A stretch of 64,000 nt of DNA, from assembly GCA_963736745.1 (NCBI GenBank), contig CAVTQD010000026.1, positions 64,830 through 128,829 on the forward strand, given 5' to 3'. The notes under the pieces are model-generated. The model worked only from the letters and a program-made list of their open reading frames with translations. It was not told where the DNA came from and made no database searches. Positions 3,613 to 14,277 of this stretch are shown here, one piece after another (position 1 is the stretch's first letter; each line of letters starts with the position of its first letter). The translations under genes were made by a program, and so were the position numbers. The stretch is from an uncultured Verrucomicrobiae bacterium. Lineage in GTDB: Bacteria; Verrucomicrobiota; Verrucomicrobiia; Chthoniobacterales; JAFAMB01.

Positions 3613-4938
3613 ATGAAACACATATTCGAAATGAAACTCTTCACACGGCTTGCTTCTGCAGGCGTTATTGCAGCTTACGCTCTCTCTTCAGGCTTGTGCT
3701 ACGCGCAACAAGCCACCCCGGCTCCAAGTCCGGCGGTCGTCTGCTGACGGCAAGGAGAGCAAGGAAGCGAAGAAAGTCGTAGAGCAACCGAAACCACCGG
3801 AACCACGATTCAAACTCTACGGCTGGATCGAGGCAGGGATCACCGGCAATCCGGACTCGCCGATCGATAGCCACAACTTCGGTCATCTGTGGACCGACCG
3901 CGCCAATGAACCGCTCCTGAATCAAATATCAATTGTCGGCGAGCGGGCTCTGGACCCGAATGCCACTGGGTTCGACTGGGGATTTAAAGCTTGGTTCATG
4001 TATGGGAGTGACGCTCGATACTCGAAATCGGTGGGATTCCTGGATCTCGTCACCAACGACCGAGTCCAGCCTGATTTTCCTGAGCTTTACGCGAGCGTCC
4101 ACATTCCGATTCCCGCAACGTCGGGGCTCGATGTGAAAGCCGGAAAGTACCAGGACCCGATGTCGGCGGAAACTTTTGATCCGCGCAACAGTGTTTTCTA
4201 TTCCCATAGCTATATTTTCAATTTCGGGATCCCTGAGAATGATACGGGTCTTCTAGCCGTACTGCATGCGAATAAATACCTCGATATTTACGCCGGAGTG
4301 AACCGTGGAGTTAATATGACGTTTAGCTGATAATAACTCCTCGGTCGCATTCGAAGGTGGGTTCGGCCTGAATTTGCTGGATGGCAATTTAACGGTCGTT
4401 GCACTCACGCACGATGGTCCGGAAGATACCCTCAACAATGTGCGACTGGCGTTATCTGAACGACATCACGACAACCTGGAAGATTACCAAGAACTTCACT
4501 TCCATCACAGATTTGAACCTGATCTATGATACTTTAGGCAACGGCAAATGGGGCGGCGGTGGTGCGCAGTATTTTACCTATGCCCTGAACGATTGGCTGC
4601 AACTTGGTGTGCGCGGCGAAATTTTTCGCGATTCACAGGGATTTTATGTCGCCCAGTTTCGCGCAAATAACGATTTCATTCACTTTGTGCGCGGCGATAA
4701 CGTCTTCCGTCCCGAATTTCCCAGCGATCCCAGCAACCTGGGGGGAGGCGAAACTACCTACTTCGAAATTACCGGTGGTGTGACCATTAAGCCGCCGCTG
4801 CCGAAACCCGTGGCCGGTTTACTGATTCGCCCTGAGGTCCGCTATGACAGGGCATTAACGGACAGATTCAAGCCGTTCGATCAGAATACCAAGCGAGACC
4901 AGTGGACATTTGGATTGGACTTAGTCCTCGAGTTCTAG
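3613..4938 (+). CDS. Putative outer-membrane beta-barrel / porin-like protein, frame interrupted at least twice as given
   Basis: Signal peptide MKHIFEMKLFTRLASAGVIAAYALSSGLCYAQQ from ATG 3613. Alternating beta-strand-like sequence follows in 3650-4330 and 4399-4938. The protein ends in ...WTFGLDLVLEF, with the C-terminal Phe typical of OM barrels. Confidence 0.55.
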
Positions 4939-4975
4939 TCGATAGTCGCAATAAAGGTTCAATTTAGACCAAAAG

Positions 4976-5004
4976 GCGCCGGCGATCTGCCGGCGCTTTT
5001 TTTT
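4976..5004 (+). terminator. Rho-independent terminator after the porin-like gene
   Basis: GCGCCGGC (4976-4983), loop GATCT, GCCGGCGC (4989-4996), then T8 (4997-5004). Confidence 0.7.
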
Positions 5005-5073
5005 GCGGTGTGCGAACGAACGGCGGCGATATGACTCTGGAACCCTTGGATGGCACGTCAAGTGCTTCTAGTG

Positions 5074-5101
5074 GTATTACGAATCTTTAGAACCGTAATA
5101 C
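5074..5101. promoter_or_regulatory. Candidate operator: 28-bp dyad GTATTA-N16-TAATAC in front of the ABC/carboxylase operon
   Basis: GTATTACG (5074-5081) and CGTAATAC (5094-5101) form a perfect 8-bp inverted repeat. The dyad lies 20-48 bp upstream of the first possible start codons of the binding-protein gene. Its geometry matches the E. coli NikR operator GTATGA-N16-TCATAC, and a NikR-family gene lies in the same operon. Confidence 0.4.
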
Positions 5102-5148
5102 TCCATCTTGTCATCCGCCTATGAACCCGTTTCGATTTTCCATGCGCT

Positions 5149-6148
5149 TTGCTTTGCGATGCTGCGTTGCGTGCCGTCGCTTTCTCCGGTCTATTAACTG
5201 TCGCGCACGCCGAGTCTCTCAAGATCGCTTATAGCGATTGGCCCGGGTGGGTCGCCTGGGAAATTGCCATCCAGAAGAACTGGTTCAAGGAGGCGGGAGT
5301 CGATGTGCAGTTCATGTGGTACGATTACGCGCCCTCCATGGACGCTTATTCGACAGGGAAGGCCGACGCCGTGTGTATGACAAACGGTGATGCTCTGGTC
5401 ACCGGCTCGACCGGCAAACCTTCTGTTGGAATTCTGATCAATGATTTCTCCAGCGGCAACGACATGATTGTCGCCAAGCCCGGAATCGATTCTGTCAAAC
5501 AACTGGCCGGCAAGAAGATTGGAGTCGAGATCGGTCTGGTGGATCATTTGCTTTTGGAGCGGGCGCTCGGGATCAGCGGATTAAGCGATGGTGACGTGAC
5601 ACTCGTCAACACACCGACTAACGAAACGCCGCAGGTACTCGCTTCCGGGGCGGTCGACGCTATCGCAGCCTGGCAACCAAATTCCGGGCAGGCGCTGAAA
5701 ACGGTTCAGGGCTCCAAGCCAATATTTCACCTCTGCCGAGGCTCCGGGATTAATCTACGATTTGCTGTACGTCTCTAGAGAAAGCCTGGAAAAGAATCGC
5801 GCAGAGTGGGCAAAAGTCGTCGCGGTCTGGTATCGCATCGTCAAGTACATGGAGGACCCAGGTAACCTGGATGAGGCTCTGAAAATTCTCGCGGCTCGCG
5901 ACAATGTGAAACCCGAAGAGTACGAGCCGTTCTTAAAAGGCACTCATATCCTATCTCTGAAGGAAGCTCTGCACCACTGGAAGAAAGGAAATGATCTCGA
6001 TTCCCTGTTTGGGTCAACTAAGAATGTCGATGATTTCAACGTCAAAAACGGCGTCTACAAGCAGCATGTGGATTTTCAAGGTTATCTGGATTCAAGCCTG
6101 ACCGAGGAATACGCAAAATCGGCCGCCGCCAAGTCAGCGAGTAAATAG
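5149..6148 (+). CDS. ABC transporter periplasmic substrate-binding protein, NMT1/THI5-like (NitT/TauT family), of the type found next to urea carboxylase genes; one frameshift as given
   Basis: [44 protein letters not shown]...[16 protein letters not shown]. Pieces 5149-5778 and 5762-6148 join near 5750. The true start is uncertain, since ATG 5121/5142 are in another frame. Confidence 0.75.
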
Positions 6149-6234
6149 TGCATCGAGTTCGGCAATTGTGCTCGTGTCGAGGGGTGGCGCCTGCGTCTGC
6201 CCGTGAAGCAACTCGAGAAAGCGAGCAAACGGGA

Positions 6235-7587
6235 ATGAATCAACGGACGGCCAATCAGGAGCGCTGGTTTAAAATCCGGGAAGAACTCTCGGGGCGCCGC
6301 GCAGGTCTTTTGATGGCGCTCTCGTTTCTGCTGCCACTGGCCATCTGGTGTATCGCCAGTTATGTGCCTTTCATTTGGCATCCGGACATTCGGCTTGAAG
6401 TCTCAGCCGATCGCACTGACGTATCGACCGTTTACACAGCGGGAGATCACGTCAGCAAGGAGTTTTTCCCAACATTTCAGAATGCTGTACGAGAGGCGAA
6501 CAATAAAATTCTGGAGAATCGAAAAATTGGTCAGAGTTCGTCCGGATTGATGGTCCGGCGAGATAATCTGAAGAAGCTGCGTCAACTTGCTCCACTGGCG
6601 ATTTCAAATGGGTGGCTTCGGCAAAACCAGCGTGAAGATGACGCAGCAATTTTTGATATCTGGAAGAAGCTTGCGACAGGCGAATTGGTGGCGAAAGAGC
6701 CTGCGCTCAATCCCGAAAACCTGGATATCATTCGTCAGGATTGGGAGATGCTTTCCGCAGCAAGCCCGACTTTTGATGCACGAAAACTGCCTGACCAGGA
6801 GCTGCTCAGCCTGGTACCGCAAGGGAAGCCATCAAATCCCTCTTATCTACCCGCGCCCCACGACGTCCTGGAGACGGGATTGCACAATTTCACTAGTGGC
6901 GGCGAATTGGGTCAGTTATCGCTTTTCAGCCGCCTCCTGATCTCGATTCGCATCGTATTTACCGGGTTCCTCCTGTCGTGTCTGATTGGTGTCCCAATCG
7001 GGATTTTCTGCGGAACATACGCGGCTTGTTCAAAGATCTCGGAGCCGTTCATTGATTTTTTCCGTTATATGCCAGCGCCCGCGTTCAGCACCCTGCTGGT
7101 GGCAATTTTTGGCGCTCATGACGAACCGAAGGTCGCACTTGTCTTCATTGGAACATTCTTCCAAATGGTGCTGGTGATTTCAAAAACGACCCGACAGCTC
7201 GACCACGCCCTTTTGGAAGCCGCGCAAACTCTCGGCGCGAAGCCCCGCCAGCTTTTTACGCATGTCGTGATTCCGGGAATTTTGCCGGAGCTCTATAACG
7301 ACCTTAGAATTCTTCTGGGCTGGTCCTGGACTTGGATGGTGATCGCGGAATTGATTGGCGTTAAGACAGGCCTGACTGAGTTTATCGAAACACAAGGGCG
7401 CTGGCGCAACTTCGACGCCGTTTTCCCCGTCATCATTTTGATTGGATTGATCGGCTTTTTTACCGATCAATTTTTGGGCTGGTTCAGAGGAATTCTATTC
7501 CCCTACACGAAGAGGGCACGCTCTGACAGCGAAGCGGGCGCGCAAAATAGAGCAACCGCCGCCGGTGAGTCAATCGCCGACAGCTGA
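6235..7587 (+). CDS. ABC transporter permease (NitT/TauT family) with long N-terminal extension
   Basis: Core permease motif EAAQTLGAKPRQLFTHVVIPGILPELYNDLRILLGWSWTWMVIAELIG. About 250 aa precede the membrane core. ATG 6235 lies inside the 6148-7587 ORF. Confidence 0.8.
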   Translation: MNQRTANQERWFKIREELSGRRAGLLMALSFLLPLAIWCIASYVPFIWHPDIRLEVSADRTDVSTVYTAGDHVSKEFFPTFQNAVREANNKILENRKIGQSSSGLMVRRDNLKKLRQLAPLAISNGWLRQNQREDDAAIFDIWKKLATGELVAKEPALNPENLDIIRQDWEMLSAASPTFDARKLPDQELLSLVPQGKPSNPSYLPAPHDVLETGLHNFTSGGELGQLSLFSRLLISIRIVFTGFLLSCLIGVPIGIFCGTYAACSKISEPFIDFFRYMPAPAFSTLLVAIFGAHDEPKVALVFIGTFFQMVLVISKTTRQLDHALLEAAQTLGAKPRQLFTHVVIPGILPELYNDLRILLGWSWTWMVIAELIGVKTGLTEFIETQGRWRNFDAVFPVIILIGLIGFFTDQFLGWFRGILFPYTKRARSDSEAGAQNRATAAGESIADS

Positions 7588-7614
7588 ATCGCCCGTCAGA
7601 CAACTAACGACCAC

Positions 7615-8517
7615 ATGAGTCAAACAACAATTGATCTTCCAGACTATCGGACGCAATCTCCCCCTGTTGCTGCGCGATTTGAGCGCCTCAAGGCGCGCCC
7701 CGTCGCTCTGGAGGTCTGTGATCTGCATAAGTACTTTCCCTCTCCGCAGGGGGAGGTGGTCGCACTGCAAAACATCGATTTCACAGTTCATCGACGCGAA
7801 TTCATGTGTGTCATCGGGGCATCTGGTTGTGGAAAATCAACGCTGATCCGAATTCTGGCCGGGCTCGAAACACCAACTGCCGGTGAGGTTTTGCTCGATA
7901 AGAAGCGGGTCAGCGGCCCCGGTCCGGAGCGTGGGATGGTTTTTCAGGGCTACACCCTTTTCCCATGGCTATCGGTCAAACAAAACGTCATGTTCGGCCT
8001 TAAAATGACCGGGCATTCCTCGAACGAGGCTGAACCGGAGGCGCGCCAATGGATTGAGATGGTCGGGTTGGCAAAGTTTGAAAACTCCTTCCCGCACCAG
8101 CTATCGGGTGGAATGAAACAACGGGTCGCCATTGCGCGCGCACTCGCCAATCAGCCGAGGGTGCTGCTGATGGATGAGCCGTTCGGAGCCCTTGATGCGC
8201 AGACGAGATGCCAGATGCAGTCTTATCTCCTCCAGATTTGGCGGAACGTCGATGTAACGATTGTTTTCATTACGCACGACCTGGATGAAGCAATTTATCT
8301 CGCCGATCGGATCCTTGTACTTAAACCCCACCCCGGCCGGGTCGATGAGATGATTGAAGTTTCGGTGCCTCGACCGCGCTCGCCTGAACAGTTCATCTCG
8401 GCGGAGTTCCTGGCAACAAAGAAACGCCTCGAAGAGCTGATCCATCCGCCCGGTGAATCGGCTGGAGATAAGCTTCCGACATTGCGGCTAACCCGTGTTG
8501 ACGACGAAGTCGAGTAG
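7615..8517 (+). CDS. ABC transporter ATP-binding protein (NitT/TauT family)
   Basis: Walker [10 protein letters not shown], signature [15 protein letters not shown], Walker [13 protein letters not shown]-loop ITHD. Confidence 0.9.
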
Positions 8518-8596
8518 GCAGCTCCCCAGTCCCATTAACCCTAAAGTCAAAGATGAATCGTGGAACCTTGGGCGTCAGTTTCTGAATCCATTTCAG

Positions 8597-9106
8597 GTGA
8601 AATCGCGAACAAAACGTAATAACGGAAATTCCGACGGCAAAGTCCAGAGAATCAGTGTCTCGCTGCCTGAGTCCGTTTTCTGCGAATTAGATCAGCTCGT
8701 TGCGGAGCGAGGTTGGGAAAGCCGCTCGAAAGCAATCTCAGTCATGGTGACTCAATCCGCCCTTGAACACCGGGAAGACAAGGGAGACACGCTCATGTCG
8801 GGCACCATCACCATCGTGTACGACGAATCAAAGGGAAGTTTATTGCAGCGTTTGGCCGAACTCGAGCGTCGTTTTCTCGATGAGGTTATCAGCTCGCTTC
8901 ATGTTCAACTAGAGAACGATCATCGAATCGAGGTCTTGCTCGTCCAAGGACCCGCTCGGATTCTCCAGAACATCGCGGACCAACTGCTCGCCTTGAAAGG
9001 GGTGAAAACCGGTAAGCTTACTCTCACCAGCATGCTTATGCCGCCACTTCATCCTCTACCCTTTCCAAGGTCGCAAGTTAACTTAAAAACCGAAGAAAGC
9101 GGTTAA
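8597..9106 (+). CDS. NikR-family (ribbon-helix-helix plus ACT-like domain) transcriptional regulator with non-canonical metal site
   Basis: RISVSLPESVFCELDQLVAERGWESRSKAISVMV matches the NikR/CopG RHH. The C-domain ...TITIVYDESKGSLLQRLAELERRFLDEVISSLHVQLENDHRIEVLLVQGPARILQNIADQLLALKGVKTGKL aligns to the NikR tetramerisation domain. The maximal ORF is 8495-9106 and GTG 8597 is the likely start. Confidence 0.7.
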   Translation: MKSRTKRNNGNSDGKVQRISVSLPESVFCELDQLVAERGWESRSKAISVMVTQSALEHREDKGDTLMSGTITIVYDESKGSLLQRLAELERRFLDEVISSLHVQLENDHRIEVLLVQGPARILQNIADQLLALKGVKTGKLTLTSMLMPPLHPLPFPRSQVNLKTEESG

Positions 9107-9180
9107 ACACAGACTTCGCAGATTTCACAGAAGACCAAAGCCAGGTTGGCGACTAACCAGGGGATCTAATATCATGACAA

Positions 9181-9913
9181 ATGCACAAGCGATCCAAGAG
9201 GTTCACATTCTTTTCGAGGAAGATTATCCCTGGCGGGGCGATGTGGTCTTACGCTCTCAAACGGCATCATACCCTCAGGGTTACCGACATCGAAAGCGGC
9301 GCAAATGTCGGAGCAATGCTCTACAACCTGAATCATTCACTCGATCGCCTAAATCTACCTGATACTCTCAAAGCTCAGCACACAGCAAAGCTGACGACCG
9401 GGAATGTGCTCTTGAGCGACATGGGACACGTTCTTTGCTCCATTTCTGCGGACACCTGTGGATGGCACGATCCGCTTGCAGGCCACTCCACGGCCAGCGC
9501 TGGTCCGGGCGAAATACGGACCATCGAGCTACCAGGAAAAACGCAACGCCTTTCACCGAAACGCTCGCGACCAATTCCTTATCGAGCTTGGCAAATGGGG
9601 ACTGGGAAAGATGGACTTGGTAGCGAACATAAACTTTTTTAGCAAAGTCACAGTCGATGCCGAGGGAAGAATGGAATTCGTAAGCGGGAATTCCGCCGCC
9701 GGCAGCTACATCGATCTGCGTGCAGAAATGGACACCCTCCTCGTCCTCAATACTTGTCAGCACCCAATGGATCCTGATCCACAGTATCACCCAAAGCCTG
9801 TGCATATCGCGGTCTGGAAATCCGACCCGCCAGCCGCAAACGATATATGCCGAGCCGCCTGTCCGGAAAACGCACGAGGATTCGCCCTAACCGAAGCACT
9901 TTTTCGTTGGTAG
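9181..9913 (+). CDS. Urea-carboxylase-associated DUF1989 protein 1 (carboxyguanidine deiminase subunit family), one frameshift as given
   Basis: [57 protein letters not shown]...DTCGWHD, then (other frame) [32 protein letters not shown]...NINFFSKV...[20 protein letters not shown]. The shift lies near 9480. Confidence 0.75.
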
Positions 9914-9969
9914 TTTCAACAGCTTGGCTTCCTGGTCTGTCGAGCTTGAGCCCCACTGGAATCACAAAT

Positions 9970-10617
9970 ATGAGCACACTGATCTATACCGAGAGCCGGC
10001 TGCGCCCGGAAGATGCCGTGTACGACTGCACGGTACTGTCCGGCGAAGCATGGATGCATGGGATAGCCGCCGGTCAAACTTTTCGGATTGTCGATCTGGA
10101 AGGCAACCAGGCAGTCGACACCCTTTTCTATAATGCCCACGATCGAACGGATCGGTACAGCGCACAAGATACCATCCGGGAACAAGGCAGTATTTATCTG
10201 ACGACCGGAACCAGGCTCATGTCGTCCGAAGGCAATGTCTTGCTAACGATCATTGCGGACACCTGTGGGCGGCACGATACCCTGGGCGGAGCGTGCTCGG
10301 CCGAGAGCAATCAGGTCCGATATGCAATCGAAAAGAAACACATGCACAGTTGCCGGGACTCCTTCCTCCTTGCGGTGGCGAAGTCGACCCAGGGCTATAC
10401 CAAGCGAGATATCACTCACAATATCAATTTTTTCATGAATGTTCCGGTTACTCCGGAGGGCGGCCTAACGTTTGCGGACGGCGTTTCCGACAAAGGTCGC
10501 TATGTCGAAATGCTCGCGGAAATGGATGTTATCGCGCTGATTTCGAATTGCCCGCAATTGAATAACCCATGCAACGCATATAATCCGACACCAATACGAT
10601 TGTTAGTCTGGGATTGA
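9970..10617 (+). CDS. Urea-carboxylase-associated DUF1989 protein 2 (carboxyguanidine deiminase subunit family)
   Basis: A paralogue of the preceding gene: [45 protein letters not shown]...[13 protein letters not shown]...NINFFMNV...[26 protein letters not shown] 9970. Confidence 0.85.
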
Positions 10618-10638: not shown

Positions 10639-13600
10639 ATGTTTACAAAAGTCCTTGTGGCCAACCGTGGCGAGATCGCCTGCCGCATAATTCGCACCTT
10701 ACACAAACTGGGCATCCGGGCTGTTTCGGTCTATTCAGACGCAGATGCACACGCGATGCACGTTGCTCTGGCAGAAGAATCGTTCCGGATCGGACCGGCC
10801 CCGGCAAAGCAGAGCTATCTAGACACCGACGGGATTCTTTCGGTGGCGAAAAACTCGGGCTGCGAGGCACTCCATCCCGGATACGGGTTTCTGAGTGAGA
10901 ACGCCGAGTTTGCGGCCGAGTGTGAAAATGCCCGTATTCGCTTCATTGGCCCGACTTCGGAACAGATAAAATCGTTCGGGCTTAAGCATGTTGCCCGCGA
11001 GCTAGCCTCAAAAGCCGGGGCGCCGCTTCTGCCCGGCACGACCCTTCTGGCGGACGCACAGGAAGCTTTAAAAGCTGCTGAGCAGATCGGATACCCGATC
11101 ATGGTCAAAAGCACGGCAGGCGGAGGCGGGATCGGACTCCGGCTCTGCAGGTCGGCAAATGAGTTGCGAGAGAGATTTGATACGGTCAAGCGTTTAGGAG
11201 AAGCCAATTTCAAACAGGGCGGAGTTTACCTCGAAAAATTTGTTGAAATTGCGCGCCATGTCGAGGTTCAGATTTTTGGGGACGGCAGAGGTCAGGTTCT
11301 GGCCGTCGGCGAACGCGATTGCTCGATCCAGCGACGCAACCAGAAGGTAATCGAGGAGACGCCGGCGCCCGACCTTTCAGACGCCGTCCGCAAACGACTC
11401 TTCGAAGCTGCCATCAGTCTGGGCAAGACGGTCAACTATGCTTCTGCCGGAACAGTAGAATTTATTTATGATAGCCTCGCGCAGACGTTTTATTTTTTAG
11501 AGGTTAACACCCGACTTCAGGTCGAACACGGCGTCACAGAAGCAGTGACCGGTATCGACCTGGTGGAATGGATGATTCGGCTTGCGGCGGGCGAACTACC
11601 TCCGCTGGAAACTCTGGTCCCCATTTGCGAGGGTCACTCTATTCAAGTCCGCATCTACGCGGAAGATCCAAACAAGAATTTCCAGCCCAGCTCGGGGCTC
11701 TTGACCGAAGTTGTCTTTCCAAAGAATGCCCGGATTGACACAGGAATTGAACGAGGAACGGAAATCTCCCCTTACTACGATCCGCTGATCGCCAAGATCA
11801 TCGTCAAAGGCAAGGACCGACCACATGCCCTGGCGAAAATGAAGGATGCCCTTCAGCAAACCCGTATCTACGGAATCGAAACGAACCAAAGCTATCTCGA
11901 ATCGGTTCTGGAAGACGAGAGGGTGACGCGTGGCGAGGTCACTACCCGGCTGCTATCATCGTTCGAATATAGACCAGCAACCTTGGATATCCTGGAGTCG
12001 GGAACTCAGACCAGCGTCCAGGATTATCCAGGCCGTTTAGGATACTGGGCCGTGGGCGTACCACCCTCCGGTCCGATGGATGCACTCGCGTTTCGTTTCG
12101 GTAATCGACTCCTTTCAAATGCTCCCGTGGCTGCTGGATTGGAAATCACAATTTCTGGTCCGACGCTCCGATTCAATACCGACTGCGAATTTTGTCTAAC
12201 CGGCGCCTCGATGAAGGCCGACCTGGACGGCAATGACATCGCTTTCTGGACGGTCGTTCAGGCACGGGCGGGACAAACATTGAGGGTTGGACAAATCAGG
12301 GGAGGCGGCGCTCGAGGCATATCTCCTGGTGAAAGGCGGCCTGGATATTCCCGACTATCTCAATAGCAAGTCGACATTCGCTCTGGGTCGATTCGGAGGC
12401 CACGGGGGACGGGTTCTTCGGGCAGGAGATGTCCTCCGCCTTCGGAAAGACAGTCAAAACGTCTTATCCGAACCCGAAAGGAGTGCGCACACTCCTCGGG
12501 TTCTGCCAACCTCAATCGTTCCGAACTATTCCAATCGATGGGAGCTTGGAGTTTTGTATGGACCGCATGGCGCTCCTGACTTTTTTACCGCCGAGTACAT
12601 CGACACATTTTTCCTCACCGAATGGAAAGTTCACTACAACTCGAATCGGACAGGGGTCCGATTGATCGGCCCCAAGCCGAACTGGACTCGAACGGACGGC
12701 GGTGAAGCGGGTCTGCATCCGTCGAATATCCATGACAATGCGTACGCTGTGGGCGCGGTCGACTTCACCGGCGATATGCCTATCCTGCTTGGACCGGATG
12801 GCCCAAGTCTGGGTGGATTCGTGTGTCCGGCCGTTGTGGTGGATGCGGAACTCTGGAAACTTGGACAGCTCAAGGCGGAGGATACCGTACGTTTCCGCCG
12901 GTTGACGGTCGTTGAAGCCGAAAAGTTGAAGTTTGCGCAGGAACATGAAATTGAGAATGTTAGAGCCTTTCCCGAGCGCTCCAGCGATCGTTTCAACGTT
13001 TAGCGCAGGCTCAGGCGACGAAGCGATCCTCGCCGGAACTCGAGCCGGCCGGAGATCGGCCCCGCGTGGTCTACAGAGGGTCCGGCGACTCTTACATCCT
13101 GGTGGAATACGGACCCATTGTTTTGGATTTGAATCTCCGTTTCCGAATCCACGCCCTGATGCAATGGATGCAGGGCAATCAACTTCCGGGGATAATCGAT
13201 CTGACCCCCGGAATTCGGTCGTTACAGGTCCATTTTGACACCAGGAAGATTCACCTGAAGGATTTGCTCGCCGTTCTGCTGGCCGCCGAAAGGGAACTGC
13301 CGCTTGCCGATGAGATGGAAGTTCCGACGCGCATAGTTCACATGCCGCTCTCATGGGAAGATGAATCGACCTTGCTGGCGATTCAGAAATATATGCAGTC
13401 CGTTCGTGCCGACGCACCCTGGTGCCCAAGCAATCTCGAGTTTATTCGGCGCGTGAACGGCCTCGAGAGCATCGAAGATGTAAAGAAAATTGTCTTCGAT
13501 GCCAGTTACCTCGTTCTGGGTCTTGGCGACGTGTACCTGGGTGCTCCAGTCGCCGTTCCTATCGACCCGCGGCACCGATTGGTTACGACGAAATATAATC

Positions 13601-14277
13601 CTGCCAGGACCTGGACGCCAGAAAATGCGGTCGGCATCGGCGGCGCTTACCTGTGCATCTACGGAATGGAAGGTCCCGGCGGTTACCAGTTCGTCGGTCG
13701 TACGGTTCAGGTCTGGAACCGTTTCCATGTGACGAAGAATTTCGAGGCCGGCAAACCTTGGTTACTTCGTTTTTTCGATCAGATTCGATTCTATCCTGTT
13801 TCCGCGGAGCAATTGCTTCGTCACAGGGAGGATTTCTTGGCCGGTAAATTCAACCTGGCGATTGAGGAAGAAACGTTTCGGCTCAGCGAGTACCACGCTT
13901 TTTTGAACCAGATCGCGCCCGAGGCGGCAGCGTTCAAGGCGGAACAACAGGCCGCTTTCGAAGCCGAACGGGAACGCTGGACTTCCACGGAGTTCGTTCC
14001 CGCGGAAGACACGGGTTCAACGCCCATCCAGGAGGAGGTGCAGTTACCTGAGGGCGGATCGTTCATCGACGCACCGGTTGCCGGCAATCTGTGGAAGTTG
14101 ATGGCAAATTCAGGGGATCAGGTTCAACCTGACCAACCGGTAGCGGTCATCGAATCAATGAAGATGGAAATGCAGGTCTGCGCAACGCGCAGCGGCACGG
14201 TCCATTCGGTATTGTGCAAGGAATTTTCTCCAGTTTCTCAAGGGCAGCATCTCTTCATCATCGAAGTCCTGCCATAG
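10639..14277 (+). CDS. Urea/guanidine carboxylase (biotin carboxylase + allophanate-hydrolase-subunit-like carboxyltransferase + biotinyl domain), frame interrupted twice as given
   Basis: The total span is 3639 nt, about 1213 aa. The N-terminal biotin carboxylase reads [20 protein letters not shown]...[13 protein letters not shown]...[14 protein letters not shown]. The KipA/KipI-like parts lie in 12287-13003 and 13066-14277. The C-terminal biotin attachment motif is [12 protein letters not shown]. Frame order is 1, 2, 1, with shifts near 12300 and 13010-13060. Confidence 0.85.

What the first reader, a model, noticed from the sequence alone, without database searches (positions are those of the whole stretch)
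5074..5101. NikR-operator-like dyad GTATTA-N16-TAATAC at the promoter of the ABC/carboxylase operon
GTATTACG (5074-5081) and CGTAATAC (5094-5101) form a perfect inverted repeat. Read as 6-nt half sites, it is GTATTA-N16-TAATAC.

The E. coli NikR operator is the 28-bp GTATGA-N16-TCATAC. The spacing is therefore identical, and 5 of 6 positions match in each half site. The dyad lies between the terminator of the upstream gene and the first start codons of the substrate-binding protein gene. The same operon encodes a NikR-family protein (8597-9106). That makes an autoregulated, NikR-type repressor-operator pair a specific and testable prediction.
Basis: partly seen in the sequence, partly recalled or inferred. 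Interest (0 to 1): 0.6.

Follow-up and report, generated by a model that had tools for sequence, protein, structure and literature searches.

The report
Operator of a nickel-less NikR repressor
This 28-base inverted repeat is very probably the docking site of a repressor encoded in the same guanidine-scavenging operon; the repressor is a relative of the nickel sensor NikR that has lost its nickel site, so it is a candidate protein sensor for a pathway where only RNA switches are known.

Summary
GTATTACG (5074-5081) and CGTAATAC (5094-5101) form a perfect dyad. It is unique in the window and in the 5.84-Mb assembly.

It is not chance.
- All 8 same-genus orthologous operons whose promoter is on the contig keep GTATTAC-N14-GTAATAC at this place, while the spacer and flanks diverge.
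- Of 80 related loci from Verrucomicrobiota and Gammaproteobacteria, 55 have the dyad (at most 1 mismatch) just upstream of the transporter gene or the NikR-like gene. It follows the NikR-like gene when the operon is rearranged.
- A blind pattern scan of 201 genomes found 21 perfect sites against 1 for a reversed control. All 15 fetched lie in front of these genes.

- A conserved sigma-54 promoter (5051-5065) ends 8 nt before the dyad, so the dyad covers the predicted start site.
- The regulator (8597-9106) has the NikR fold but R/H/Q/R in place of the nickel ligands H/H/H/C, so nickel control is unlikely.

The carboxylase carries the guanidine-specific Asp signature. I found no published description.

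This scan reached the same reading earlier on other genomes. The effector is unknown; binding and repression are inferred, not shown.

The parts
4976..5004 (+). Intrinsic terminator of the upstream BBP2 porin gene: stem 4976-4983/4989-4996, then a T8 run at 4997-5004.
   Evidence: Sequence. The terminator scan found the same G+C stem. The porin identity comes from Pfam PF07642.
5051..5065 (+). Sigma-54 promoter TGGCACGTCAAGTGC, with -24 GG at 5052-5053 and -12 GC at 5064-5065. The predicted transcription start is near 5077.
   Evidence: It is the only match in the window. It is conserved in all same-genus orthologues while the flanks diverge. rpoN and more than 10 activator genes are present in the genome. 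The start site is inferred from the usual 12-nt distance after the -12 GC.
5074..5101 (.). Operator dyad GTATTAC-N14-GTAATAC, with half-sites at 5074-5080 and 5095-5101. It spans about -3 to +25 of the sigma-54 promoter.
5121..6148 (+). Substrate-binding protein gene of the ABC importer (NMT1/SsuA type). The conserved ATG is at 5121. The frame is broken near 5167 and 5724 in this assembly.
   Evidence: Pfam PF09084 and TIGR03427. Orthologue alignment.
6148..7587 (+). ABC permease gene.
   Evidence: Pfam PF00528.
7615..8517 (+). ABC ATPase gene.
   Evidence: Pfam PF00005.
8597..9106 (+). NikR-like regulator gene: an N-terminal ribbon-helix-helix domain plus a NikR_C domain. The nickel ligands are replaced by R91/H102/Q104/R110, and a conserved C-terminal tail PPLHPLP is present.
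   Evidence: Pfam PF08753 at 1.1e-22 plus PF01402. PDB 2bj1 at 3e-30. Ungapped alignment to E. coli NikR. AF2 model and Foldseek, where all top hits are NikR.
9181..9913 (+). First DUF1989 gene (UAAP1, a carboxyguanidine deiminase subunit type). The frame is broken in this assembly.
   Evidence: PF09347 and TIGR03425. Indels.
9970..10617 (+). Second DUF1989 gene (UAAP2).
   Evidence: TIGR03424 at 338.6 bits, above the 284.7 cut-off.
10639..14277 (+). Biotin carboxylase of the urea/guanidine carboxylase family, carrying the guanidine signature (Asp at K. lactis positions 1330 and 1584). It is split into three ORFs in this assembly.
   Evidence: TIGR02712. Alignments to K. lactis 3va7/5i8i. Criteria from PMC11410670.

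Best explanation
The dyad is the operator of the NikR-like protein encoded four genes downstream.

The operon is: ABC importer, regulator, two DUF1989 deiminase subunits, guanidine carboxylase. It is transcribed from a sigma-54 promoter (5051-5065). A sigma-54 promoter needs an enhancer-binding activator, presumably a nitrogen-status one.

A tetramer of the regulator would place its two ribbon-helix-helix dimers on the half-sites GTATTAC (5074-5080) and GTAATAC (5095-5101), two helical turns apart. That region is roughly -3 to +25. Binding there would block open-complex formation or escape of the sigma-54 polymerase, and would also repress the regulator's own gene.

The canonical nickel site is gone, so the signal is not nickel. 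Most likely it is a small molecule of the pathway, with guanidine the first candidate, that releases the repressor.

Shown here: the sequence element, its conservation, its exclusive association with these genes, the protein fold and the ligand substitutions. Inferred: binding, repression, the start site and the effector.
For: 1. Architecture. The site is a 28-bp inverted repeat with 7-nt half-sites and N14 between them. This matches enterobacterial (GTATGAT-N13/14-ATCATAC) and delta-proteobacterial (GTGTTAC-N13/14-GTAACAC) NikR sites.

2. Conservation.
- All 8 same-genus orthologous operons with a readable promoter keep the half-sites while the spacer and flanks vary.
- 55 of 80 related loci have the dyad (at most 1 mismatch) within 260 bp upstream of the SBP or NikR-like gene start. 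69 of 80 have it with at most 2 mismatches. My calculation of chance is about 5e-4 per 250 bp.
- Positions 7 and 22 were not used for selecting sites, yet are 94% C and 81% G.

3. The dyad travels with the regulator gene when that gene heads the operon. Where transporter and carboxylase operons are separate, both carry it.

4. A blind scan of 201 genomes of the order gave 21 perfect sites in 15 genomes, against 1 for the reversed control. All 15 fetched loci are just upstream of the NikR-like or orthologous SBP gene.

5. This is the only NikR-family gene found in this assembly.

6. The DNA-reading strand R-I-S-[VI]-S-L is almost invariant across both phyla. It aligns without gaps to E. coli R3/T5/T7.

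7. Canonical NikR paralogues in the same genus keep H/H/H/C and sit beside a different dyad, RTAACAT-N13-ATGTTAY.

8. In 43 of 77 sites a sigma-54 box precedes the dyad, mostly with the -12 GC 6-9 nt before it.
Against:
- In the relatives searched, every guanidine-carboxylase operon also has the regulator (14 of 14). There is therefore no natural 'operon without regulator' control to separate the two.
- No conserved upstream activator site was found.
- The direction of the ligand effect is unknown. Canonical NikR binds DNA when liganded, which would be an odd logic for a substrate-induced operon.
- Several genes of the operon carry frameshifts in this assembly. The system may be inactive here, or the assembly may be error-prone.
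Confidence: 0.8

Rival explanations
1. The inverted repeat acts as RNA. It would form a hairpin at the very 5' end of the mRNA that stabilises the transcript or controls translation.
For: If the start site is near 5077, most of the dyad is transcribed. The 62-nt leader folds to -9.1 kcal/mol with z = -2.1.
Against: - Across 70 distinct sites, departures from the consensus mostly break pairing rather than compensate. Pair 4-25 has 18 broken against 6 compensated, pair 1-28 has 12 broken, and pair 7-22 has 15 broken.
- The loop is unconstrained in sequence but fixed in length.
- In several Verrucomicrobiales loci (L078, L079, L093, L104, L108) the dyad lies upstream of the sigma-54 box and would not be in that transcript.
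- No Rfam family matches.
Confidence: 0.05
2. The dyad is bound by a different protein that is not encoded in the operon, for example the sigma-54 activator or another global regulator.
For: The cognate activator and its binding site are unidentified. Co-occurrence alone cannot prove which protein binds.
Against: - Activator sites normally lie about 100 bp upstream, not over the start site.
- The spacing and half-site form are those of NikR operators.
- The dyad follows the NikR-like gene through rearrangements in two phyla.
Confidence: 0.08
3. The protein is still a metal sensor, for nickel or another metal bound at a remodelled site. The operon would then be metal-regulated, as the NCBIfam name would suggest.
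For: NF003381 'NikR' scores 111.9 bits, above its 105 cut-off. One His of the site is kept in the window protein. Gammaproteobacterial members keep three His (pattern HHHT).
Against: - None of the 81 carboxylase-linked proteins has the full H/H/H/C set, and the Cys is always lost.
- The window protein has R/H/Q/R, and K45/V49 at the second metal site.
- From general knowledge, the pathway enzymes here (biotin carboxylase, DUF1989) are not nickel enzymes.
- The ex-ligand positions vary between clades, whereas E96, Q117, P119 and H152 are invariant.
Confidence: 0.07
4. The dyad is a chance palindrome with no function.
For: None beyond the fact that short A/T-rich palindromes do occur.
Against: 0 of 100 shuffles contain the pattern. 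It is unique in the genome. It is conserved across two phyla at the same place.
Confidence: 0.01

Closest known systems
E. coli NikR and its nikABCDE operator GTATGA-N16-TCATAC
   Same: - The operator has the same 28-bp dyad geometry and matches 5 of 6 bases in each half-site.
- The protein has the same two-domain fold.
- The full-length alignment is ungapped, and the DNA-reading residues R/T/T correspond to R/S/S.
- The regulator gene is adjacent to the ABC transporter operon it would repress.
   Different: - The nickel ligands H76/H87/H89/C95 are R/H/Q/R here, and the K+-site ligands E30/D34 are K/V.
- The target is a guanidine-assimilation operon, not a nickel importer.
- The promoter is sigma-54 type.
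- There is an extra conserved C-terminal tail with an invariant His.
Delta-proteobacterial NikR sites GTGTTAC-N13/14-GTAACAC (predicted; PMC545781)
   Same: The site is an inverted repeat of 7-mers with N14 between them, and 6 of 7 bases are identical in each half-site. That work also describes everted variants of the orientation, and some Verrucomicrobiales loci here show the same.
   Different: Those sites precede nickel transporters and hydrogenases, and their regulators keep the nickel site.
Guanidine-I (ykkC) riboswitch in front of guanidine importer and carboxylase operons
   Same: It occupies the same place in the same kind of operon: upstream of the ABC importer and deiminase genes. 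In gammaproteobacterial loci L083 and L100 a guanidine-II riboswitch still precedes the carboxylase gene. This matches the two-switch layout described for enterobacteria (PMC12186494).
   Different: Here the control is a DNA operator plus a protein, not an RNA aptamer. No ykkC match was found in the window or in the 10 loci tested.

Membership tests
NikR family (protein) | N-terminal ribbon-helix-helix DNA-binding domain | tested here: met
   PF01402 at E 3.5e-4. Full-length alignments to P. horikoshii, H. pylori and E. coli NikR. The AF2 model shows helices 25-38 and 43-62.
NikR family (protein) | C-terminal NikR_C (ACT-like beta-alpha-beta-beta-alpha-beta) tetramerisation domain | tested here: met
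   PF08753 at E 1.1e-22. In Foldseek the top 50 hits are all NikR, and the C-domain matches with target-normalised TM-score 0.9 or more at about 1 A rmsd.
NikR family (protein) | High-affinity square-planar nickel site: His76', His87, His89, Cys95 in E. coli numbering | tested here: not met
   The equivalents are R91, H102, Q104 and R110. None of 81 carboxylase-linked homologues has all four, whereas the canonical paralogues do.
NikR family (protein) | Second (K+/low-affinity) metal site: Glu30 and Asp34 | tested here: not met
   The equivalents are K45 and V49 in the ungapped alignment. The site definition comes from PMC7055735.
NikR family (protein) | Nickel-dependent operator binding | not testable with these tools
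   This needs a biochemical experiment.
NikR family (protein) | Curated NCBIfam score cut-offs | tested here: inconclusive
   NF003381 scores 111.9 against a cut-off of 105, so it passes. TIGR02793 scores 67.8 against 175 and NF002815 scores 75 against 83, so both fail.
NikR-type operator | Inverted repeat of 27-28 bp with 6-7-nt half-sites two helical turns apart | tested here: met
   GTATTAC-N14-GTAATAC.
NikR-type operator | Lies in the promoter of an operon linked to the regulator gene | tested here: met
   It lies 8 nt after the -12 element of the conserved sigma-54 box, in the same operon as the regulator.
NikR-type operator | Bound by the cognate NikR protein | not testable with these tools
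   Only co-occurrence and co-migration evidence is available.
Sigma-54 promoter | GG-N10-GC core within TGGCAC-N5-TTGC | tested here: met
   TGGCACGTCAAGTGC matches 9 of 10 consensus positions and is conserved in orthologues and in Gammaproteobacteria.
Sigma-54 promoter | rpoN and enhancer-binding activators present in the genome | tested here: met
   PF04552 scores 199 bits on contig C17. More than 10 PF00158 genes are present.
Sigma-54 promoter | Cognate upstream activator site | tested here: inconclusive
   No conserved block lies upstream of -24 among the orthologues. NtrC-like sites are only weakly enriched, and there is none with 2 or fewer mismatches in the window.
Guanidine carboxylase pathway operon | Carboxylase with Asp at K. 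lactis positions 1330 and 1584 | tested here: met
   GAVDFTGD and GLGDVYLG align to K. lactis N1330 and D1584. All 65 related loci that contain this segment have Asp.
Guanidine carboxylase pathway operon | Two DUF1989 subunits (carboxyguanidine deiminase) | tested here: met
   TIGR03425 and TIGR03424.
Guanidine carboxylase pathway operon | Allophanate hydrolase | tested here: met
   It is not in the operon. It lies on contig C19 at 217898-219491, scoring 549.6 bits against a 511 cut-off, with no dyad nearby.
Guanidine carboxylase pathway operon | Guanidine riboswitch control | tested here: not met
   No Rfam match in 4000-10000 at E up to 1.

The most novel reading that the evidence does not exclude
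The NikR-like protein is a guanidine-responsive (or guanidine-pathway-intermediate-responsive) transcription factor. It would be the first protein receptor described for guanidine. It would have evolved from a nickel sensor by loss of the metal site, and it would replace the guanidine-I riboswitch at sigma-54 promoters in Verrucomicrobiota and some Gammaproteobacteria. GTATTAC-N14-GTAATAC would be its operator.
Probability: 0.4. Interest if true: 0.8.

Novelty: new variant of a known kind. Interest (0 to 1): 0.68.

Why it matters
A 2025 review states that riboswitches are the only known guanidine receptors apart from transporters and enzymes, and that guanidine-binding transcription factors remain to be found (PMC12186494).

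This work provides a defined protein and a defined 28-bp operator. The pair is conserved in at least 80 loci of two phyla and is tied specifically to carboxylases with the guanidine signature. That makes the open question directly testable by EMSA or ITC and by genetics in a cultured carrier.

It also gives a clear case of a metal sensor re-used for another signal while keeping its DNA-binding geometry. It is an example of operator-type repression at a sigma-54 promoter. Finally, it warns that automatic annotation of these genes as 'nickel-responsive regulator NikR' is misleading.

Tried and rejected
- Riboswitch in the leader: no Rfam match.
- More sites in the genome (larger regulon): none better than chance, in either direct or everted orientation. 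There is none near the allophanate hydrolase gene.
- Sigma-70 promoter: the scan found none in 4800-5400.
- Upstream activator (NtrC-type) site: nothing conserved and only weak enrichment.
- Natural negative control (carboxylase operon without the regulator) among relatives: none exists in the 41 genomes searched.
- Literature on NikR with urea or guanidine carboxylase: nothing relevant. The E. coli NikR-DNA structure paper was not held, so the base contacts of R3/T5/T7 rest on my own knowledge of PDB 2HZV.
- AF2 monomer model: it confirmed the fold but left the conserved C-terminal tail unplaced (pLDDT below 50 from residue 152), so no effector pocket could be proposed from it.

Full report
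THE ELEMENT

GTATTACG (5074-5081) and CGTAATAC (5094-5101) form a perfect inverted repeat. The 6-nt reading is GTATTA-N16-TAATAC. The 7-nt reading is GTATTAC-N14-GTAATAC.

The pattern is unique in the window, and none of 100 shuffles contains it. In the whole 5.84-Mb assembly (window = G000:C26:64830-128829) it is the only perfect site. There is no 1-mismatch site. The four 2-mismatch sites are within chance, and there are no everted or relaxed (GTAWTAC) copies.

SURROUNDINGS

Upstream lies a BBP2-type porin gene (3650-4938, in two frames). It ends in a G+C hairpin with a T8 run at 4976-5004.

Downstream, all on the + strand, are:
- an NMT1/SsuA-type binding protein
- an ABC permease
- an ABC ATPase
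- a NikR-like protein (8597-9106; RHH_1 plus NikR_C)
- two DUF1989 proteins (TIGR03425 and TIGR03424)
- a roughly 1200-aa biotin carboxylase (TIGR02712)

The binding-protein gene really starts at ATG 5121. That codon and the following codons are conserved in orthologues. No Rfam family, and in particular no guanidine riboswitch, matches 4000-10000.

Directly before the dyad lies TGGCACGTCAAGTGC (5051-5065). This is a sigma-54 -24/-12 element matching 9 of the 10 consensus positions, and it is the only such match in the window. On its own this is not significant, because 26 of 100 shuffles have a match. However, it is conserved at the same place in every same-genus orthologue while the sequence around it is not.

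The genome encodes RpoN and more than ten enhancer-binding ATPases.

With the -12 GC at 5064-5065, the start site is expected near 5077. The dyad therefore spans about -3 to +25. This is an inference from the usual sigma-54 geometry.

CONSERVATION OF THE DYAD

Same genus. Thirteen relatives out of 40 searched carry an orthologue of the regulator, always in the same gene neighbourhood. In all eight same-genus operons whose promoter is on the contig, GTATTAC-N14-GTAATAC is kept. The 14-nt spacer and the flanks vary.

Rearranged operons. Where the NikR-like gene heads the operon (G039, G027, G016, G028), the dyad sits in front of that gene instead. One case reads GTATGA-N16-TAATAC.

Wider search. 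A profile search of one genome per species found 408 loci. The best 80 come from Verrucomicrobiota (Chthoniobacterales, Terrimicrobiaceae, Verrucomicrobiales, Akkermansiaceae, Opitutia) and Gammaproteobacteria (Halothiobacillus, Gallionella, Thiogranum, Methylobacillus arboreus).
- In 76 of the 80 the NikR-like gene is followed by the DUF1989/carboxylase genes. The other four either break off at a contig end (L094, L098, L113) or show no such gene after the regulator (L110).
- In 55 of 80, a site with at most one mismatch lies within 260 bp upstream of the binding-protein or NikR-like gene start. In 69 of 80, a site with at most two mismatches does. My calculation of the chance expectation is about 5e-4 per 250 bp for one mismatch or fewer.
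- Several of the loci without a site are cut off by contig ends.
- Positions 7 (C, 94%) and 22 (G, 81%) were not part of the selection pattern yet are conserved. The spacer is only A/T-rich.

AN UNCONDITIONED TEST

I scanned 201 genomes of the order for the bare pattern. This gave 21 perfect sites in 15 genomes, against one for the reversed control pattern.

All 15 loci fetched lie immediately upstream of a NikR-like gene or an orthologous binding-protein gene. In one genus, each genome has two sites, one at the transporter operon and one at the regulator-carboxylase operon.

The element is therefore specific to this pathway and marks a small regulon.

THE REGULATOR

The closest solved structures are P. 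horikoshii NikR (E 3e-30), then H. pylori and E. coli NikR. An AF2 model (mean pLDDT 72.6) has the two RHH helices and a beta-alpha-beta-beta-alpha-beta domain. All top 50 Foldseek hits are NikR.

An ungapped alignment with E. coli NikR (sequence verified against 1q5v; alignment) gives these equivalences:

| E. coli NikR | Window protein | Role |
|---|---|---|
| R3, T5, T7 | R18, S20, S22 | DNA-reading strand |
| H76, H87, H89, C95 | R91, H102, Q104, R110 | high-affinity nickel ligands |
| E30, D34 | K45, V49 | second (K+/low-affinity) site ligands |

The site definitions come from PMC7055735. The absence of indels means the two DNA-binding domains should be spaced as in NikR, which fits the identical operator spacing. 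The base contacts of R3/T5/T7 are from my own knowledge of PDB 2HZV, because the paper was not held.

Among 81 carboxylase-linked homologues, none has the H/H/H/C set and the Cys is always lost. The strand R-I-S-[VI]-S-L is nearly invariant.

Canonical NikR paralogues in the same genus keep H/H/H/C and have the strand A-R-F-G-V-S-L. They sit beside a different dyad, RTAACAT-N13-ATGTTAY. Each paralogue thus appears to have its own operator. No canonical paralogue was found in this assembly, which is 76% complete.

Residues specific to and invariant in the new clade are E96, Q117, P119 and H152. H152 lies in a C-terminal tail (PPLHPLP) that canonical NikRs lack.

WHAT THE OPERON DOES

Aligned to K. 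lactis urea amidolyase (5i8i numbering), the carboxylase has Asp where K. lactis has Asn1330 (GAVDFTGD against GAINFTGD). It also keeps Asp1584. These are the published criteria for guanidine rather than urea carboxylase (PMC11410670).

All 65 related loci that contain this segment have Asp. Allophanate hydrolase is encoded elsewhere, on contig C19, without a dyad.

In two gammaproteobacterial loci, a guanidine-II riboswitch still precedes the carboxylase gene. This mirrors the enterobacterial layout, in which a guanidine-I riboswitch precedes the importer genes (PMC12186494). There, the sigma-54 promoter plus dyad stands where the guanidine-I riboswitch usually is.

MECHANISM

Most likely (0.8), the NikR-like tetramer binds the dyad and blocks the sigma-54 polymerase at the start site, repressing the operon and its own gene. 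An activator supplies nitrogen-status control. A pathway-related ligand, guanidine first among the candidates, would relieve repression.

The effector and its sign are not established. Canonical NikR binds DNA when liganded, so a co-repressor logic cannot be excluded.

RIVALS

- RNA hairpin. Changes in the half-sites mostly break pairing instead of compensating. In some loci the dyad lies upstream of the promoter.
- Another binding protein. This cannot be excluded formally, but the geometry and the co-migration with the gene argue against it.
- Metal sensing. This is unlikely given the ligand losses, though gammaproteobacterial members keep three His.
- Chance. Excluded.

KNOWN OR NEW

Full-text searches found no paper linking a NikR-like protein with urea or guanidine carboxylase. 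The 2025 review says no guanidine-binding regulator protein is known.

Earlier notes of this scan describe the same regulator-operator pair and sigma-54 promoter in other genomes. I had reached the same reading independently, before that look-up, and I tested it here.

CAVEATS

All evidence is comparative, and related genomes are not independent samples.

The assembly is a metagenome-assembled Chthoniobacterales genome. Its operon shows frameshifting indels relative to two orthologues at about 5167, 5724, 9225, 9496, 12315 and 13035. Either the assembly is error-prone or the operon is decaying in this organism. The regulator gene and the operator are intact.

Noticed in passing
window 5167, 5724, 9225, 9496, 12315, 13035 (approximate): Frameshifting 1-2-nt indels, relative to two orthologues, break the binding-protein gene, the first DUF1989 gene and the carboxylase gene. 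The porin (3650-4938) and the allophanate hydrolase on contig C19 are also split. These are either assembly errors (orthologous MAGs in the same genus are from one MAG series, MFD) or a decaying pathway.
   Followed up: partly
L018:849-875, L019:2008-2034, L020:1359-1385: Canonical NikR paralogues (H/H/H/C kept) in the same genus have their own conserved dyad, RTAACAT-N13-ATGTTAY, next to the gene. It resembles the everted delta-proteobacterial NikR signal.
   Followed up: partly
L083:8886-8932 and L100:6797-6841: A guanidine-II (mini-ykkC) riboswitch lies between the second DUF1989 gene and the carboxylase gene in gammaproteobacterial loci. The same loci also carry the sigma-54 box, the dyad and the NikR-like gene, so protein and RNA control are combined in one locus.
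   Followed up: no
L078, L079, L093, L104, L108 (about 6900-6960): In some Verrucomicrobiales the half-sites are everted (GTAATAC-N14-GTATTAC), and the dyad lies just upstream of the sigma-54 box rather than after it.
   Followed up: no
G039, G053, G086, G104, G120, G127 (e.g. L149 and G039:C160:15461-15488): In one genus the transporter operon and the regulator-carboxylase operon are separate, and each carries a perfect dyad. This makes a two-operator regulon.
   Followed up: partly
window 8597-9106 (residues E96, Q117, P119, H152): These residues are invariant in the carboxylase-linked clade and differ from, or are absent in, canonical NikR. H152 lies in a conserved C-terminal tail PPLHPLP that AF2 could not place. 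Together they are candidates for a new effector site.
   Followed up: partly
L023 and L026, about 60-250 nt upstream of the sigma-54 box: Short dispersed repeats (CTCCTGAATTCTGA-type words) are inserted between the upstream gene and the promoter in some orthologues. The region upstream of -24 is therefore not conserved, and no activator site could be recognised.
   Followed up: no
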